Below, piece by piece: positions 4,687 through 25,213 of a stretch of 44,427 nucleotides of DNA. The notes beneath the pieces were generated by a model. It ran no database searches, was not told the DNA's origin, and was given only the letters and a program-made list of their open reading frames with translations. Made by a program: the position numbers and the translations under genes. Source of the stretch: an uncultured Bacilli bacterium (GTDB taxonomy: Bacteria; Bacillota_I; Bacilli_A; RF39; UBA660); NCBI GenBank assembly GCA_949425575.1, contig CASPVX010000004.1:1-44427 (forward strand). Reading direction: 5' to 3'. The stretch's first letter is position 1. The number at the start of each line of letters is the position of its first letter.

Positions 4687-5133
4687 TTATTTGGTTTTCT
4701 TTTTATTTTTTTTACTTCTATTACTCATTTTATGTTTAATTGCTATATATATAATTATAAGTACTGTTAATATAGCAGAACCATACAATACATATTCTTG
4801 TTTTATTATAGATTTATCATCAGAATTTTTTTTATCATCTTCATCTACTTTAATAACATATTCCCCATCTTTAGTATAAAGATAATTTTCTCTCGCATAT
4901 CTTGCAACATAATCTTTATCTTGCAGTTTTGTTATTTCTGTTTTTAAATTATCTGCTTCTTTTTGCATATCCCTCAAATTAGTTTCTAATTGTTTTTGTT
5001 CTTTTTGTAGTGTATATAAATTATATCCCATACTAGCTATTGTAAATATACATGAAAAAATAGCTAATATAGATAGAGGAACTAAAATAACAAGTCTTCG
5101 TTTTGATTGTTTACTTACTCTTCGTTTAGCCAT
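4687..5133 (-). CDS. divIC: Septum formation initiator DivIC/FtsB family, with an extra C-terminal TM
   Basis: basic N-terminus, TM, coiled coil, L.DKDYVARYARENYLYTKDGE motif; yabP-yabQ-divIC synteny. Confidence 0.87.
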   Translation of the reverse strand: MAKRRVSKQSKRRLVILVPLSILAIFSCIFTIASMGYNLYTLQKEQKQLETNLRDMQKEADNLKTEITKLQDKDYVARYARENYLYTKDGEYVIKVDEDDKKNSDDKSIIKQEYVLYGSAILTVLIIIYIAIKHKMSNRSKKNKKKTK

Positions 5134-15108: not shown

Positions 15109-15660
15109 TTATACATATACATTTTGTGGTTTTGTAGCTAATGGTTTATAAGTTCTTTCATCCTTATATTCAGGTACTAAAATAACTTGGCCTTTTTCTA
15201 AACTCTGTTTTACATCTATTATTCTTTGATTTCTAGATCCTTTATAATATAAATTAAGACTACGCTCTTCAATAACAAATTTTCCATCTACTAAAACATC
15301 AATATATTTTAACAGTTCTAGCGCATCTTTATCTTTAATTAAATCTTCAAATAAGAATCCCGTAAAACACCAAATATTTTGCCCTTTTTTCTTAACATGT
15401 TTACAAATCTGTAAACATTGTTTTTTTTGAAATAAAGGATCTCCACCAGATAAGGTTATACCATCTTGAGCTTCAATTTTATCAAGTTCTTTGATAACAT
15501 CATCAACATCAACTAAAAATCCACCTTTAAAGTCATGCGTTGCTTGATTGTGACATCCAGGACAATTATGGCTACACCCTTGTGTCCAAATAACAGTTCT
15601 AATTCCTGGACCATCAACTATGCTGTCAGATTGTAAATCACCCGCTAACCTAATTTTCAT
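15109..15660 (-). CDS. nrdG: Anaerobic RNR activating enzyme
   Basis: SIVDGPGIR, GCSHNCPGCHN radical-SAM motif, SGGDP, GSRNQR. Confidence 0.96.
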   Translation of the reverse strand: MKIRLAGDLQSDSIVDGPGIRTVIWTQGCSHNCPGCHNQATHDFKGGFLVDVDDVIKELDKIEAQDGITLSGGDPLFQKKQCLQICKHVKKKGQNIWCFTGFLFEDLIKDKDALELLKYIDVLVDGKFVIEERSLNLYYKGSRNQRIIDVKQSLEKGQVILVPEYKDERTYKPLATKPQNVYV

Positions 15661-15662
15661 TA

Positions 15663-15824
15663 TTATTTACCTAATACTTCTTTAGTTCCGTGTTTAACAC
15701 GAGCTCTTTCTTCGGCTTTTTTAGCATTGTTGAATCTATTAGTTGTTCCTACTAAATAACCTGTAATTCTTCTAATTCTTTCAAAACCTACACCTTCACC
15801 GATTTTCTTTTCTTCTGCTTTCAT
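15663..15824 (-). CDS. Stand-alone NrdD glycyl-radical domain (53 aa)
   Basis: GEGVGFERIRRITGYLVG...FNNAKKAEE.ARVKH is the NrdD C-terminal Gly-radical loop; own SD AGGAGGA 6 nt before ATG 15824. Confidence 0.9.
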   Translation of the reverse strand: MKAEEKKIGEGVGFERIRRITGYLVGTTNRFNNAKKAEERARVKHGTKEVLGK

Positions 15825-15835
15825 TTTATTTCCTC

Positions 15836-18139
15836 CTATCTTCCACCGCAAGTATTTAAACTAGCGTTTTTAACTCTTTCAATTGGCACACCTTCGCCAT
15901 CTTTACGTCCACAACCTGGACAATAATCTCCAATTACCCCAGTGTATCCACATACTGGGTCTCTATCTACTGGGTGATTGATTGCACCATAACCTATATT
16001 ATTATCATGCATTAATCTTACAATTTTTTCAAAGGCATCAACATTCATCGCTGTATCGCCATCTAATTCTACATAACTAATATGTCCTCCATTAGTAAGT
16101 TCATGATAAGGACCTTCTAATTTCAATTTAGATGCTATCGAAATGTCATAGTAAACTGGAATATGGAATGAATTAGTATAATAATCTTTATCAGTAATTC
16201 CAGTTAATTTACCATAAATCGCTTTATCCATATTAGTAAATCTTCCTGATAATCCTTCAGCTGGAGTTGCAATTAAAGAGAAATTTAAATTATACTCTTT
16301 TGCATATTCATCCATTTTATTTCGCATAAATCCGATTATCTCTAAACCTAATTTTTGAGAAGCTTTACTTTCTCCATGATGCTTACCAGTTAAAGCTGTT
16401 AAACATTCAGCAAGACCGATAAATCCAATTGTAAGTGTTCCATGTTTTAAAGCTTTTCTAAGTCTATCTGTATCTTTTAATTTGTCACTATCCATCCAAA
16501 TACCTTGTCCTAATAAAAATGGAAAGTTATATACTCTTCTTGAACATTGAATTTCAAATCTGTCTAACAATTGATCTTTTACTAAATCCATTTTTTCTTC
16601 TAGTTCTTTATAGAATTCATCCATATTTGTTTTACCACTAGGAAGACCATGTTTAATTCCAAGTCTTGGTAAATTAATTGAAGTGAATGACAAATTTCCT
16701 CTTCCAGGAGTAAGTGACTTGTTAGGATCAGCTACATTAGTAAGTACTCTTGTACGACATCCCATATAACCTACTTCTGTTCTATAATCATTTGGATCAT
16801 ATGTAACTTTATTGAATGTTGAATCAATAAATGAGAAATTAGGGAATAGTCTTTTTGCTGAAACTTCACAAGCTAATCTAAACAAATCATAGTTTGGATC
16901 TTCTTTTTCGTAGTTTACTCCCTCTTTTAATTTGAAAATTGAAATTGGGAATATTGGTGTTTCATTTTTTCCAAGTCCTGCATCTGTAGCAAGTAAATAA
17001 TTTTTAATAACCATTCTTCCCTCAGCTGAAGTATCTGTACCAAAGTTAATAGATGAAAATGGTACTTGAGCTCCTGCTCTTGAATGCATTGTATTTAAAT
17101 TATGAATAAATGCTTCCATAGCTTGATATGTTGCTCTATCAGTTCTTTGAAGTGCTTTTTCATAAGCTTTAGTTAATATTTTTTCAACTTCTTTTGATCC
17201 TTTTGCATAACTATAAAAATCAGCTATATCAAAATCGATTGTATTTAATTTATCAACATCTTTAGCAACTTTATCCATATTAATAAAATTAATAAAATCA
17301 GTTACTTCTAAGAAATCACAAATAGCTTGTTTAAATTGTTTTTTAAATGTTTGAAGTACTCCTGGTGCCATATAGTAATCAAAAGCAGGAATACTTTGAC
17401 CACCATGTTGATCATTTTGATTTGCTTGAATAGCAATTGCAGCTAAAGCTGAATAACTAATAATATCATTTGGTTTTCTTAAATGACCATGTCCAGTAGA
17501 AAAACCACCTTCAAATAATTTTTGCAAATCAATTTGCATACAAGTAGTTGTTCCCATTGGCATGAAATCCATATCATGAATATGAATATCACCATTATCA
17601 TGAGCTTCTGCGATTTTCTTTTTCATTAAATATGATTTTGCAAATTCTTTAGAAACTGTACTTCCATATTGAAGCATTGTTCCCATTGCTGTATCTCCAT
17701 CAACATTAGCATTTTCTCTCTTTGAATCTTCTTCTGCTGCTGACTTAAGACCTAAACTTTCAATTGCTTTTAAAAATTTATGTTGTTTCTTTTCTCCCAT
17801 AAATAATTGTCTTGAAGCGGCTCTTCTTTCTCTATATTCAGCAAATGAAGTATAAACATCTTCATATTTTTCTTTTTTTAACTCTTCCTCAATTAAATCT
17901 TGAATTGTTTCAATTTTAATTTTTCCATCTGCAGCAAATTCTTTTTCAATTCTATCAACTACAGCATTATAAACTTTATTTATATCTTTTTCAGTATATT
18001 TAGGTTCATTTTCTTCATCATGAATACTATCAAAACCTTTTTTTATTGCCATGGCAATTTTAGTTGGATTCCATTCAACCTTTCTGCCAGTACGTTTTAC
18101 AACTTCAAAGTTGCTTAATTTTTCTTCAGTGTTAACCAT
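15836..18139 (-). CDS. nrdD: Class III anaerobic ribonucleoside-triphosphate reductase large subunit, lacking the Gly-radical loop
   Basis: ATP cone VVKRTG, HIHD, TTTC, QHGGQ, MGCRT thiyl Cys, TPAE, YYTNSFH, GGHISY, DPVC..CPGC; no RxxGY at the C-terminus. Confidence 0.95.
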   Translation of the reverse strand: MVNTEEKLSNFEVVKRTGRKVEWNPTKIAMAIKKGFDSIHDEENEPKYTEKDINKVYNAVVDRIEKEFAADGKIKIETIQDLIEEELKKEKYEDVYTSFAEYRERRAASRQLFMGEKKQHKFLKAIESLGLKSAAEEDSKRENANVDGDTAMGTMLQYGSTVSKEFAKSYLMKKKIAEAHDNGDIHIHDMDFMPMGTTTCMQIDLQKLFEGGFSTGHGHLRKPNDIISYSALAAIAIQANQNDQHGGQSIPAFDYYMAPGVLQTFKKQFKQAICDFLEVTDFINFINMDKVAKDVDKLNTIDFDIADFYSYAKGSKEVEKILTKAYEKALQRTDRATYQAMEAFIHNLNTMHSRAGAQVPFSSINFGTDTSAEGRMVIKNYLLATDAGLGKNETPIFPISIFKLKEGVNYEKEDPNYDLFRLACEVSAKRLFPNFSFIDSTFNKVTYDPNDYRTEVGYMGCRTRVLTNVADPNKSLTPGRGNLSFTSINLPRLGIKHGLPSGKTNMDEFYKELEEKMDLVKDQLLDRFEIQCSRRVYNFPFLLGQGIWMDSDKLKDTDRLRKALKHGTLTIGFIGLAECLTALTGKHHGESKASQKLGLEIIGFMRNKMDEYAKEYNLNFSLIATPAEGLSGRFTNMDKAIYGKLTGITDKDYYTNSFHIPVYYDISIASKLKLEGPYHELTNGGHISYVELDGDTAMNVDAFEKIVRLMHDNNIGYGAINHPVDRDPVCGYTGVIGDYCPGCGRKDGEGVPIERVKNASLNTCGGR

Positions 18140-18167
18140 AAAACTTCCTCCTACCTTGCTACTTCTG

Positions 18168-18196
18168 ATTATAGTAAATTTAAATTAAATCGTCAA
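18168..18196 (-). promoter_or_regulatory. sigma-A promoter of the nrd operon
   Basis: TTGACG-17nt-TATAAT. Confidence 0.75.
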
Positions 18197-18562
18197 CAAA
18201 AAAAACGAACATTTTTAAACTTTTTTTTATGAGTTTAAAAACGCCCTTATTTTACGTCGTTTTTTACAAAAAAATATTTTTTAAGAATTTACATTTTATT
18301 AACTTTTTTGATTTTTTGTTTTTTTGTCAAAAAAACATTTTGGGGTTAATCCTTTGTTTTTACTAGGTTTTCCCATTTTTCAGAAAAAATACTTTTTTTG
18401 TTTTTTGAGAATTTACCAATTTTCGCTTTTTGTTATTTTTAATTTTTTCTATTTTTTGTTTTTTTGTTTTTTTTGATATTTTTTAATACAAAAAGGTAAA
18501 ATGTTCGCTTTTTATAGTAGAATGTTTGTGTTTTTTTTGAATAGAATTATAATGGTGAAATT

Positions 18563-24863: not shown

Positions 24864-25213
24864 TAATATTTTATAAGCCATATTCTGTTCCTACAAAGTA
24901 GGTGGCAAACATTTATCTATTGAATAATCAATCCCATGAACAGTTTGATTCCCATTCATTAGGTTCCCCTACCAAAATTTGGGTTTCTTGCTTGCGGGGT
25001 TTACCTCGTTTCACTTTTTCGTTTCCGAAAAATTCGTCACTGTGGCACTTTAGTTTTTTAGTCATATCAAAGACTTAGACTTCAAAACGCCGTTAGCATT
25101 AAAGCTACCCTAGGTTATTTTTTCCCTAGGCACAAACACTACTATCATCGCAGATAGTGCAAGTATGGACTTTCCTCTACATTATTATAAATGCAGCGTT
25201 TGCCAAAATATTA
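24864..25213 (-). ncRNA. rnpB: RNase P RNA, type B
   Basis: minus strand has GAGGAAAGTCCATA, AAAGTGCCACAGTGACG, GGTAAACCCC, ACAGAATATGGCTTA; P1 TAATATTTT/AAAATATTA; P2 GGCAAAC/GTTTGCC; downstream of gpsB as in Bacilli. Confidence 0.97.

What the first reader, a model, noticed from the sequence alone, without database searches (positions are those of the whole stretch)
15663..18139. Two-piece class III ribonucleotide reductase: the glycyl-radical loop is a separate 53-aa gene
Seen: NrdD (767 aa) has the ATP cone, thiyl Cys (MGCRT) and metal-binding motif, but ends ...DGEGVPIERVKNASLNTCGGR* with no RxxGY loop. The loop (RRITGYL) is in the next ORF, which has its own strong SD (AGGAGGA, overlapping the nrdD TAG, 6 nt before ATG 15824) and ends 2 nt before nrdG. 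The segment GEGVxxER occurs in both chains (GEGVPIERVK and GEGVGFERIR), which fits fission by duplication rather than a single-base sequencing frameshift. Established: the glycyl radical of class III RNR normally lies in the NrdD C-terminus, O2 cleaves the backbone at that glycine, and pyruvate formate-lyase is repaired by the autonomous spare part GrcA/YfiD. Inference: here the radical carrier is an obligatory, cheap and exchangeable subunit, so O2 exposure would destroy 53 residues rather than about 800. I recall similar short NrdD-annotated proteins in gut Firmicutes, so the architecture may be widespread; I know of no characterisation.
Basis: partly seen in the sequence, partly recalled or inferred. 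Interest (0 to 1): 0.82.

Follow-up and report, generated by a model that had tools for sequence, protein, structure and literature searches.

The report
Two-piece anaerobic ribonucleotide reductase
In this gut bacterium the oxygen-sensitive radical loop of the enzyme that makes DNA building blocks without oxygen is a separate 53-residue protein, a layout that proves common in gut anaerobes and appears undescribed.

Summary
nrdD (15836-18139, minus strand, 767 aa) matches NrdD models up to the zinc site and stops. The next ORF (15663-15824, 53 aa) has its own AGGAGGA and ATG and supplies exactly the missing glycyl-radical loop. nrdG follows 2 nt later.

It is not an artefact. In 125 distinct split loci the relative frames are 40/44/41, every small ORF has an SD-like site, and 122 start with ATG. 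dN/dS of the small ORF is 0.13, against 0.15 for the NrdD body. An independent DNA contig bridges the junction without indels. No class I/II RNR was found in 10 of 10 genomes of the family, so the two-piece enzyme must work.

It occurs in many genera of this Bacilli family, and in records labelled Oscillospiraceae, Lachnospiraceae and Fibrobacter.

All split NrdDs keep a conserved tail that duplicates the strand leading into the loop. A complex model pairs that tail with the small protein (score 0.64, best control 0.00).

The oxygen-economy and exchange idea is plausible but untested. I found no description in print. A 2026 review calls spare parts outside pyruvate formate-lyase an open question.

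The parts
18168..18196 (-). Promoter-like site upstream of nrdD (TTGACG, 17 nt, TATAAT)
   Evidence: Best site in the scan, 11 of 12 matches. It is a consensus match only. No comparable site lies between nrdD and the small ORF.
15836..18139 (-). nrdD body: class III RNR catalytic chain, 767 aa, without a glycyl loop (stop TAG 15836-15838)
   Evidence: Pfam NRDD profile 1-532 of 562, E 3e-190. NCBIfam PRK07111 at 1008 bits against a cut-off of 764. Closest solved chain is 8p23_A, aligned 13-745 to 9-704.
17819..18103 (-). ATP-cone (residues 13-107)
   Evidence: Pfam PF03477, E 2.7e-13.
16757..16759 (-). Codon of Cys461 in MGCRT, the presumed thiyl-radical cysteine of the finger loop
   Evidence: Invariant in 39 of 39 aligned split NrdDs. 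Residues 460-462 lie in the modelled interface with the small protein. Its role is assigned by homology.
15911..15952 (-). Metal-site segment C730...C740-P-G-C743
   Evidence: C730, C740, P741, C743, G744 and R745 are invariant in 39 rows. A fourth ligand was not identified here.
15839..15904 (-). NrdD tail (residues 746-767): a degenerate copy of the strand and loop, with Leu where the radical Gly would be
   Evidence: The first 11 tail positions fit one pattern in 111 of 113 distinct tails, and 0 of 113 carry RxxGY. dN/dS of the first 12 codons is 0.41. Residues 747-753 and 756 touch small-protein residues 8-14 in the model.
15831..15837 (-). Shine-Dalgarno AGGAGGA of the small ORF, overlapping the nrdD stop
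   Evidence: Read from the sequence. An SD-like site with at least 4 of 6 matches precedes the small ORF in 125 of 125 distinct split loci, and with at least 5 of 6 in 112.
15663..15824 (-). Small ORF, 53 aa: stand-alone glycyl-radical loop subunit (stop TAA 15663-15665)
   Evidence: Pfam NRDD profile 533-562 of 562, 30.3 bits against a cut-off of 26.2. 19 residues are invariant in 58 homologues. dN/dS is 0.13. It aligns to 8p23_A residues 708-740.
15759..15761 (-). Codon of Gly22 in RRITGYL, the presumed radical glycine
   Evidence: G22 is invariant in 58 of 58 sequences. Its role is assigned by homology to the NrdD C-terminus.
15109..15660 (-). nrdG: radical-SAM activase, 183 aa, starting 2 nt after the small ORF's stop
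   Evidence: TIGR02491 at 167 bits against a cut-off of 126.1; Pfam Fer4_12 and Radical_SAM. An nrdG-like ORF lies directly downstream in 106 of 125 split loci, judged by a crude motif filter.

Best explanation
This is a working class III ribonucleotide reductase built from two polypeptides, encoded in one nrdD-small ORF-nrdG operon.

The 767-aa NrdD chain carries the ATP-cone, the catalytic barrel with Cys461, the metal site and a short conserved tail. It has no radical glycine. The 53-aa chain is translated from its own ribosome-binding site and carries the glycyl-radical loop (Gly22) and the C-terminal helix.

Inferred steps:
1. NrdG abstracts a hydrogen from Gly22 of the small chain.
2. 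The small chain docks on NrdD. Its N-terminal strand (residues 8-17) pairs with the metal-site hairpin (724-729) on one side and with the duplicated tail strand (747-753) on the other.
3. Its loop enters the barrel next to Cys461, and catalysis proceeds as in single-chain NrdD.
4. O2 cleaves the backbone at the glycyl radical, so damage would fall on the small chain alone. A newly made small chain could probably replace it. That would make this a built-in version of the spare-part repair known for pyruvate formate-lyase.

The layout most likely arose by tandem duplication of the segment that encodes the strand and loop, followed by decay of the upstream copy. Deletion between the two repeats could restore a fused gene.
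For: Shown by calls:
- The two ORFs match complementary, non-overlapping parts of the NrdD models. They map to residues 9-704 and 708-740 of solved chain 8p23_A.
- Separate translation is the only consistent reading. In 125 distinct split loci the relative frames are 40/44/41, gaps run from -1 to 192 nt, all have an SD-like site, and 122 start with ATG.
- Purifying selection acts on both parts: small-ORF core dN/dS is 0.13 (0.05 within the genus), and the NrdD body is 0.15.
- PF02867 (class I/II) was found in 0 of 5 split genomes, two of them single-contig. Each of four of them examined for NrdD has one NrdD locus.
- Five further genomes of the family have fused NrdD and also lack PF02867.
- Independent DNA contig X2 record 16 spans 15771-16439 with no indels.
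- The tail is conserved in 111 of 113 distinct tails, and none has RxxGY.
- Complex model: ipSAE 0.64, 0.64 and 0.62, with the best of 3 controls at 0.00. That mark was reached by 58 of 80 solved complexes and by 2 of 110 mismatched pairs. The runs agree in at least 89% of their contacts. Partner pLDDT is 73-75.
- The modelled interface includes 460-462, 724-729 and 747-753 against small-protein residues 5-26.
- Some genomes carry two or three small-ORF copies.

From papers (passages read):
- The GRD flips out of the core for activation by NrdG (PMC12662201).
- O2 cleaves the backbone at the glycyl radical, and YfiD/GrcA replaces the cleaved PFL domain (PMC13450708).
Against: - There is no direct evidence of the protein, the radical, binding or activity.
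- The complex pass may come from the model's memory of solved single-chain NrdDs (8p23, 9d3x, 1h78), as is expected for halves of a split gene.
- RNA-library contigs cover all three genes. None of those listed bridges the nrdD/small-ORF junction, and such libraries can contain DNA.
- Exchange and repair are pure inference. A tightly bound, never-exchanged subunit fits all the data equally well.
- The cultured carriers examined (G575, G576) also have a class I/II-type RNR, so essentiality holds only for this family and for the Fibrobacter MAG G578.
- The tail is less constrained (dN/dS 0.41) than the rest.
- G000 is only 79% complete.
Confidence: 0.8

Rival explanations
1. It is a two-subunit enzyme, but the fission is neutral. 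The small chain binds once and permanently, is never exchanged, and gives no advantage under oxygen. The layout persists and spreads only because it is harmless and easily made or undone.
For: The split and fused states are labile on the NrdD tree: 10 changes on the ML tree and at least 5 forced by well-supported branches. Close relatives with fused genes live in the same family. Most genomes have a single small-ORF copy. Tight operon linkage, usually with nrdG next (106 of 125), suits stoichiometric co-expression.
Against: The tail strand is conserved in 111 of 113 distinct tails across phyla. Extra small-ORF copies, unlinked stand-alone forms and copies in mobile-looking contexts exist. These suggest the loop module is used as a separable part. 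None of this is decisive.
Confidence: 0.4
2. One polypeptide is made after all, by stop-codon read-through, ribosomal frameshifting or bypassing across the junction.
For: In several species of the genus the small ORF is in frame with nrdD and separated by a single TAG. G009 and G012 read as one 831-850 aa frame with 1 TAG, and their gap is 12 nt in frame 0.
Against: Across 125 distinct loci the three relative frames are equally common (40/44/41). Gaps range from -1 to 192 nt, and each small ORF has its own SD and start codon. In this window the nrdD frame meets a second stop (TGA) 12 nt after the TAG, and the small ORF is in another frame. No single recoding signal could serve all of these.
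Confidence: 0.03
3. It is an assembly or sequencing artefact, or a decaying pseudogene. A normal nrdD was broken, and the small ORF is a relic.
For: The window comes from a 68-contig, 79% complete genome bin. In two other records (L091, L111) the NrdD frame is broken elsewhere.
Against: The same break recurs with abundant synonymous changes: 19 of 24 other species of the genus have the loop in a short frame (55-70 aa), 12 loci of the genus were read at DNA level, and 82 of 101 matching genomes of the order are split. An independent contig reproduces the junction without indels. dN/dS is 0.13 for the small ORF. No other RNR was found in these genomes.
Confidence: 0.01
4. The small protein is only a spare part for a different, complete NrdD elsewhere in the genome, and the truncated NrdD beside it is inactive.
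For: Some Clostridia-type genomes hold both a fused and a split NrdD (G577, G579). Stand-alone loop proteins coexist with intact NrdD in 13 of 14 cases in the class survey.
Against: The two single-contig genomes of this genus (G009, G012) and G067 and G096 show one NrdD locus only, the split one. The own genome shows only the two pieces. The truncated NrdD body is as constrained as expected for an active enzyme (dN/dS 0.15).
Confidence: 0.03

Closest known systems
Canonical single-chain class III RNR (NrdD): solved chains 8p23, 9d3x and 1h78/1h79 (T4), with activase NrdG
   Same: The same family by every model. It shares the ATP-cone, the barrel with the finger-loop Cys, the metal site, the RxxGYL loop followed by a helix, and the nrdG neighbour. 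In Prevotella copri NrdD the GRD (676-739) is a Zn site, then the buried Gly711 loop, then a tail (PMC11226230, passage).
   Different: Here the chain is cut between the metal site and the loop, corresponding to 8p23_A residues about 704-708. The loop is a separate gene product. The large chain has gained a conserved tail that duplicates the strand leading into the loop.
GrcA/YfiD of E. coli and Y06I of phage T4: autonomous glycyl radical cofactors, the spare parts for pyruvate formate-lyase
   Same: All are small free-standing proteins that carry a glycyl-radical loop, are activated by the parent enzyme's activase and complement a parent chain that lacks the loop. YfiD also overlaps a strand retained in O2-cleaved PFL, and that strand is needed for rescue (PMC13450708, passage). 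This parallels the duplicated strand here.
   Different: GrcA is homologous to the PFL C-terminus, whereas this protein is homologous to the NrdD C-terminus and has no Pfam Gly_radical hit. GrcA backs up an intact PFL. Here the parent never has a loop, so the small chain is obligatory. It is adjacent to its parent gene, and at 53 aa it lacks a long N-terminal region.
Split class II RNR NrdJa/NrdJb (Pseudomonas aeruginosa and a subclade of class II)
   Same: A ribonucleotide reductase whose C-terminal functional module is a separate chain encoded next to the catalytic chain (PMC9669993, passages).
   Different: It belongs to a different class and carries a different module: an IscU-like domain, a zinc finger and a Cys pair for reduction, not the radical site. 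It involves no radical carrier and no activase.
Uncharacterised stand-alone 87-95 aa NrdD-type loop proteins, named 'anaerobic ribonucleoside-triphosphate reductase' by NCBI in Thomasclavelia, Longibaculum and Candidatus Stoquefichus
   Same: The loop and helix are the same, 62-77% identical to small-ORF residues about 12-47. They match only the last 30 positions of the NRDD models.
   Different: They carry a conserved, confidently folded beta-beta-alpha-beta-beta N-terminal domain of about 60 residues (pLDDT about 85). They are unlinked to nrdD and usually coexist with an intact NrdD (13 of 14). They look like true spare parts rather than halves of a split gene.

Membership tests
Class III RNR catalytic subunit (NrdD) | Sequence membership: match to curated NrdD models above their cut-offs | tested here: met
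   NF005497 at 1008 bits (cut-off 764), NF011292 at 781 bits (736), TIGR02487 at 584 bits (326), and Pfam NRDD at E 3e-190.
Class III RNR catalytic subunit (NrdD) | Conserved finger-loop cysteine that becomes the thiyl radical | tested here: met
   C461 in MGCRT is invariant in 39 of 39 sequences. Residues 460-462 lie in the modelled interface with the loop chain. Its chemical role is by homology only.
Class III RNR catalytic subunit (NrdD) | C-terminal metal (Zn) site of four ligands before the loop | tested here: inconclusive
   C730, C740 and C743 are invariant. A fourth Cys is not evident. H722 is invariant and might serve as the fourth ligand. This was not tested further.
Class III RNR catalytic subunit (NrdD) | Radical glycine (RxxGY loop) in the C-terminus of the same polypeptide | tested here: not met
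   The chain ends 24 residues after C743, with Leu at the aligned Gly position. 0 of 113 distinct split-NrdD tails carry RxxGY. The loop is supplied by the next ORF.
Class III RNR catalytic subunit (NrdD) | Adjacent radical-SAM activase NrdG | tested here: met
   TIGR02491 at 167 bits (cut-off 126.1) for ORF 15109-15660.
Class III RNR catalytic subunit (NrdD) | Glycyl radical formation and NTP reduction | not testable with these tools
   This needs anaerobic biochemistry and EPR.
GrcA/YfiD autonomous glycyl radical cofactor (PFL spare part) | Small free-standing protein carrying a glycyl-radical loop | tested here: met
   A 53-aa ORF with its own SD and ATG. The RRITGYL residues G22, Y23 and L24 are invariant in 58 sequences.
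GrcA/YfiD autonomous glycyl radical cofactor (PFL spare part) | [quoted passage not shown] | tested here: not met
   The only Pfam and NCBIfam hits are NrdD models.
GrcA/YfiD autonomous glycyl radical cofactor (PFL spare part) | Backs up a parent enzyme that has its own loop, replacing it after O2 cleavage | tested here: not met
   The only NrdD in these genomes has no loop, so the small chain is a constitutive subunit. Rescue after O2 damage is not testable here.
Split RNR (class II NrdJa/NrdJb type) | Class II (B12-dependent) catalytic chain with a separate C-terminal chain | tested here: not met
   No PF02867 match in the genome. The protein is class III. The resemblance is one of architecture only.

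The most novel reading that the evidence does not exclude
The glycyl-radical loop of class III RNR is a free-standing, replaceable radical cartridge in a large share of gut anaerobes. It occurs in several forms:
- as the obligatory small subunit of a split NrdD (this window);
- in extra tandem or unlinked copies;
- as stand-alone proteins with their own folded N-domain beside an intact NrdD, or beside a NrdD that has lost its loop (G326);
- in mobile or phage-like contexts.

Together these would be the first spare-part system for a glycyl radical enzyme other than pyruvate formate-lyase. NrdG would charge the free small chain, and O2-cleaved chains would be swapped out while the roughly 770-aa catalytic chain survives. 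Duplication and deletion between the repeated strand would switch lineages between the fused and cartridge forms.
Probability: 0.45. Interest if true: 0.9.

Novelty: new variant of a known kind. Interest (0 to 1): 0.8.

Why it matters
Class III RNR is the only source of deoxyribonucleotides found in this bacterial family. It is also a textbook single-chain glycyl radical enzyme.

A natural form with the radical site on a separate 53-residue chain changes that picture in two ways. It gives a direct experimental handle on how the activase reaches the glycine. It also lets one ask whether the radical domain can be exchanged after oxygen damage.

A June 2026 review states that spare-part proteins are known only for formate lyases, and that it is undetermined whether they exist for other glycyl radical enzymes (PMC13450708, passages). 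These genes make that question testable. Cultured carriers are available: Scatolibacter rhodanostii Marseille-P3890 (L147) and Bacterium 1XD42-1 (L139).

There is a practical side too. Annotation pipelines name both the 53-aa and the roughly 92-aa proteins, where they name them at all, as 'anaerobic ribonucleoside-triphosphate reductase' or hypothetical. Surveys that require a C-terminal loop would misread thousands of NrdDs as defective.

Tried and rejected
- Read-through, frameshift or bypass: rejected on the frame and gap statistics.
- Trans-splicing by a split intein: considered and rejected from the sequences. The tail is 12-51 aa and the small chain has only about 8-20 residues before the conserved strand. 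Neither is long enough for intein halves, and no intein family was hit.
- An NrdR box or riboswitch upstream of nrdD: I saw none on reading 18140-18560. Rfam at gathering thresholds found only RNase P in the window.
- Co-transcription from RNA-library contigs. X15 record 1 bridges the small ORF and nrdG (15129-15736) and record 4 covers nrdD from 15839. No listed RNA contig bridges 15817-15839. Such libraries may hold DNA and contigs cannot show transcripts, so I draw no conclusion.
- Single origin of the split. This was not excluded within the family set (76 rows, 4 changes, only 1 forced). It is not upheld in the wider set (158 rows, 10 changes, at least 5 forced). The direction of change (fission or re-fusion) is unresolved. 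No AU test was run, and the root was a midpoint.
- Rows dropped:
  - In one search, L028 and L040 gave no motif by my first regex and were left out of the 76-row tree.
  - L001, L002, L041, L042, L091, L111, L133, L136, L146 and L151 were left out of the 158-row tree.
  - Rows with fewer than 470 residues before the CxxC motif were also left out of that tree.
- The Cys pair at the tail's end as a reductant shuttle: 59 of 113 distinct tails have at least two Cys in the last 8 residues. It is missing in many genera, and this window has one Cys, so I do not claim it.
- Counts (65 short, 7 intermediate and 73 long frames of 145 matches) were made by hand from the table.
- Counts are lower bounds. 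Only 8000 candidates were scored, and they may include fragments cut at contig ends.
- Literature searches that found no description of a split NrdD or an NrdD-type spare part. Passages were checked. Subscription journals and supplements were not searchable, so a description there, or in RNRdb, cannot be excluded.
Full report
**The observation.** On the minus strand the window holds three tightly packed genes.
- nrdD runs 18139-15836 (767 aa, stop TAG).
- A small ORF runs from ATG 15824 to 15663 (53 aa).
- nrdG starts at 15660, two bases after the small ORF's stop.
- AGGAGGA (15831-15837) overlaps the nrdD stop and sits six bases before the small ORF's ATG.

Pfam's NRDD model splits cleanly between the two ORFs: positions 1-532 of 562 in the large ORF and 533-562 in the small one. 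NCBIfam PRK07111 does the same (4-713 and 711-745 of 746), and nrdG is a clear TIGR02491 member. The two ORFs are in different frames, and the nrdD frame meets a second stop 12 nt on. The best promoter-like site (11 of 12) lies upstream of nrdD at 18196-18168, and none of comparable quality precedes the small ORF.

**It is not an artefact, a pseudogene or recoding.**
- Within the genus, 19 of 24 other species genomes hold the loop in an open frame of 55-70 aa. The five matches from outside the genus in the same draw were in frames of 614-796 aa.
- DNA alignments of 12 loci show the same stop, the same SD and many synonymous changes.
- In a draw of 201 genomes of the order, 101 matched: 82 in frames of 54-78 aa and 19 in long frames.
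The gap runs from -1 to 192 nt (median 22).
- In those loci an SD-like site with at least 4 of 6 matches precedes every start (at least 5 of 6 in 112). The start is ATG in 122, GTG in 2 and TTG in 1. The length is 43-75 aa.
- No read-through or frameshift signal could serve all three frames.
- A DNA contig of an independent public study (X2 record 16, 15771-16439) crosses the junction with two substitutions and no indel.
- By my own Nei-Gojobori script, dN/dS is 0.13 for the 38-codon core of the small ORF (0.05 within the genus). It is 0.15 for 150 codons of the NrdD body and 0.41 for the first 12 tail codons.

**It must work.**
- PF02867, which covers class I and II catalytic chains and rang in 12 of 14 control genomes, was found in 0 of 5 split genomes. 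These included two single-contig genomes of the genus and the 79%-complete own genome.
- Each of the four split genomes other than the own one shows one NrdD locus. The own genome shows only the two pieces.
- Five genomes of the family that lacked a match to the small ORF turned out to carry a different, fused NrdD. They too lack PF02867.
- Class III RNR is thus the only RNR found in 10 of 10 genomes of this family that I examined.

**Distribution.**
- A search of 29-93 aa proteins returned 7979 clusters at E<=0.001 among the 8000 candidates scored.
- A profile of 58 small proteins found 2735 representatives of 50%-identity clusters. The best 150 are almost all 54-95 aa.
- I reclassified the 80 best loci from species-representative genomes. 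72 are split, 4 are fused, and 4 are small loop genes with no nrdD beside them.
- Record titles include uncultured Bacilli, Tenericutes and Mollicutes, Clostridium sp. CAG:417, Oscillospiraceae, Faecousia, Lachnospiraceae, Ruminococcaceae, Mogibacterium and Peptococcaceae. They also include Fibrobacter and the cultured Scatolibacter rhodanostii Marseille-P3890 and Bacterium 1XD42-1.
- In 301 genomes of the order of the Scatolibacter genome, 126 matched. By my hand count, 65 of 145 matches lie in frames under 200 aa and 73 in frames of 700 aa or more.
- Some genomes carry both a split and a fused NrdD (G577, G579).
- The two cultured carriers also have a class I/II-type RNR. The Fibrobacter MAG has none.
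- The window's own sequence is held mainly by mouse-gut metagenome runs.

**Anatomy of the break.**
- Against the closest solved chain (8p23_A, 743 residues), the NrdD body aligns to 9-704 and the small protein to 708-740. The cut falls between the metal site and the loop.
- This matches the domain plan described for Prevotella copri NrdD: a Zn site, then the buried Gly711 loop, then a tail (PMC11226230, passage).
- Fused relatives in the same family read CPGCGR, then about four residues, then D-G-V-x-F-E-R-I-R-R-I-T-G-Y.
- Split NrdDs keep a copy of that strand after the CxxCxR motif and then diverge. The first eleven tail positions fit one pattern in 111 of 113 distinct tails. Position 4 is E in 106, position 6 is V, I or L in 113, and position 9 is E in 102. 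None has RxxGY.
- In this window Leu stands where the radical Gly would be, and the chain ends six residues later.
- Bacilli-type tails are 17-22 aa. Clostridia-type tails are 25-29 aa with a further conserved helix-like motif. A few reach 41-51 aa.
- The small protein repeats the strand (G-E-G-V-x-F-E-R-I) and then carries the loop. G9, F14, R16-R19, T21, G22, Y23, L24, G26 and eight later residues are invariant in 58 sequences.
- The overlap is what a tandem duplication followed by decay of the upstream copy would leave.

**Complex model.**
- With my own alignments (39 and 58 rows), the complex scored ipSAE 0.64, 0.64 and 0.62. The best of 3 controls scored 0.00.
- That mark was reached by 58 of 80 solved complexes and by 2 of 110 mismatched pairs. 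The runs agree in at least 89% of their contacts, and partner pLDDT is 73-75.
- The most confident contacts put small-protein residues 12-17 against NrdD 724-729, and residues 8-14 against tail residues 747-750, both running antiparallel.
- NrdD 460-462, which contains Cys461, is in the interface.
- This supports binding and suggests that the tail acts as a docking strand.
- Because single-chain NrdDs are solved, the pass may reflect memory of those structures. It shows likeness, not proof.

**Evolution.**
- On a tree of 158 NrdD bodies (118 split, 40 fused, with the tail and loop excluded) the label needs 10 changes. At least 5 of them are forced by branches with SH-aLRT of 95 or more. Shuffled labels need 35.8 on average, and 0 of 500 shuffles did as well.
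- Under a midpoint root, split forms are basal and fused forms nested in both major clades. The direction is not established.
- The two direct repeats offer a simple route both ways: duplication to split, and deletion between the repeats to fuse. This is inference.

**Related forms seen on the way.**
- In the class survey, 14 matches lay in 92-114 aa frames, 13 of them in genomes that also have a full-length NrdD.
- These proteins (L041, L042) have a conserved N-terminal domain and match only the last 30 positions of the NrdD models. At least 7988 clusters exist.
- Where NCBI names them, it calls them 'anaerobic ribonucleoside-triphosphate reductase', in Thomasclavelia, Longibaculum and Candidatus Stoquefichus.
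- An AlphaFold2 model gives a beta-beta-alpha-beta-beta domain at pLDDT of about 85, followed by a low-confidence loop and a helix.
- One closed genome (G326) has a NrdD whose loop has decayed, followed directly by nrdG with no small ORF. It also has the stand-alone protein 1.4 Mb away and a second, fused NrdD.
- Other genomes have two tandem small ORFs (L185), or a second copy nearby (L186).
- A small loop gene sits next to a Dam-like methylase (L187).
- Eggerthella phage EL753P1 has nrdD followed by a separate, frameshifted loop ORF.
- These forms suggest that the loop module is used as a separable part. They do not prove it.

**Mechanism: what is shown and what is inferred.**
- Shown: two genes, separately startable, both under purifying selection; the only RNR found; a conserved duplicated strand; a confident predicted interface.
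- Established elsewhere:
  - The GRD flips out for activation by NrdG (PMC12662201, passage).
  - O2 cleaves the chain at the glycyl radical.
  - YfiD/GrcA, charged by the PFL activase, replaces the cleaved PFL domain and needs an overlapping strand retained in cleaved PFL (PMC13450708, passages).
- Inferred: NrdG charges Gly22 of the small chain. The chain docks by strand pairing and inserts its loop beside Cys461. O2 damage is confined to the small chain, which can be replaced.

**Novelty.**
- Eight full-text searches and passages from nine papers gave no description of a split class III RNR or of an NrdD-type spare part.
- The split class II NrdJa/NrdJb is known (PMC9669993).
- The 2026 review says spare parts are known only for formate lyases, and that their existence for other glycyl radical enzymes is undetermined. 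The 2021 JBC paper says the same (PMC8683613).
- Supplements, subscription journals and RNRdb could not be checked.
- A split class I RNR in phage Aeh1, created by a homing endonuclease, is recalled from memory only.

**Limits.**
- There is no protein-level evidence.
- The taxon labels are record titles, and some are plainly mis-binned.
- My ORF and motif scripts are crude.

Noticed in passing
L041:1361-1624(-), L042:1486-1773(-): Stand-alone 87-95 aa proteins, divergent from dapF-like genes. They have a conserved folded N-terminal domain (beta-beta-alpha-beta-beta, pLDDT about 85) fused to an NrdD-type glycyl loop and helix. They occur in genomes that also have a full NrdD. There is no dedicated Pfam or NCBIfam family. 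NCBI names them 'anaerobic ribonucleoside-triphosphate reductase'. They are a candidate true spare part for class III RNR.
   Followed up: partly
L183:1090-3333(-) (G326): A 748-aa NrdD whose glycyl loop has decayed and which ends early, followed directly by nrdG with no small ORF. The same closed genome holds the stand-alone loop protein about 1.4 Mb away and a second, fused NrdD. This may be an unlinked version of the two-piece enzyme.
   Followed up: partly
L185:2920-3553(+); L186:1336-1530(-) and 4829-4999(+): Extra copies of the small loop gene. In L185 two tandem small ORFs lie between nrdD and nrdG. In L186 a second small ORF lies about 3.3 kb from the first on the other strand.
   Followed up: partly
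L187:849-1037(-); L133, L136, L146, L151: Small NrdD-type loop genes with no nrdD beside them. Some lie among small or phage-like genes, and in L187 the neighbour is a Dam-like methylase. The contexts were not analysed with family searches.
   Followed up: no
L188:2896-3137(+) (Eggerthella phage EL753P1, OP172808.1): The phage nrdD is followed by a 102-aa hypothetical gene and then a separate loop ORF. That ORF is interrupted by a frameshift inside the RRITGY motif and is annotated as a 42-aa hypothetical protein. This could be a sequencing error, decay or recoding. It was not resolved.
   Followed up: partly
L091, L111: Two records (one of them a MAG filed as a chromosome) have the split layout, but the NrdD body itself is broken into several frames. 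These may be indel errors or real decay.
   Followed up: no
L083, L086, L109, L113, L116, L160: The record titles (uncultured Muribaculaceae, thaumarchaeote, Rickettsiales) sit oddly with split loci whose NrdD tails and small ORFs closely resemble those of the uncultured-Bacilli or Clostridia records. This is probably mis-binning or mislabelling.
   Followed up: no
window 24869-25211 (-): A bacterial RNase P RNA of class B at 294 bits, in keeping with a Firmicutes-type organism.
   Followed up: no
window 15744-15785: The stretch that encodes the RRITGYL region attracts contigs of other organisms at much higher depth in metatranscriptome and metagenome runs (X15 record 2 at depth 652). This shows how conserved the loop-coding DNA is across gut taxa. 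Depth there says nothing about this organism.
   Followed up: no
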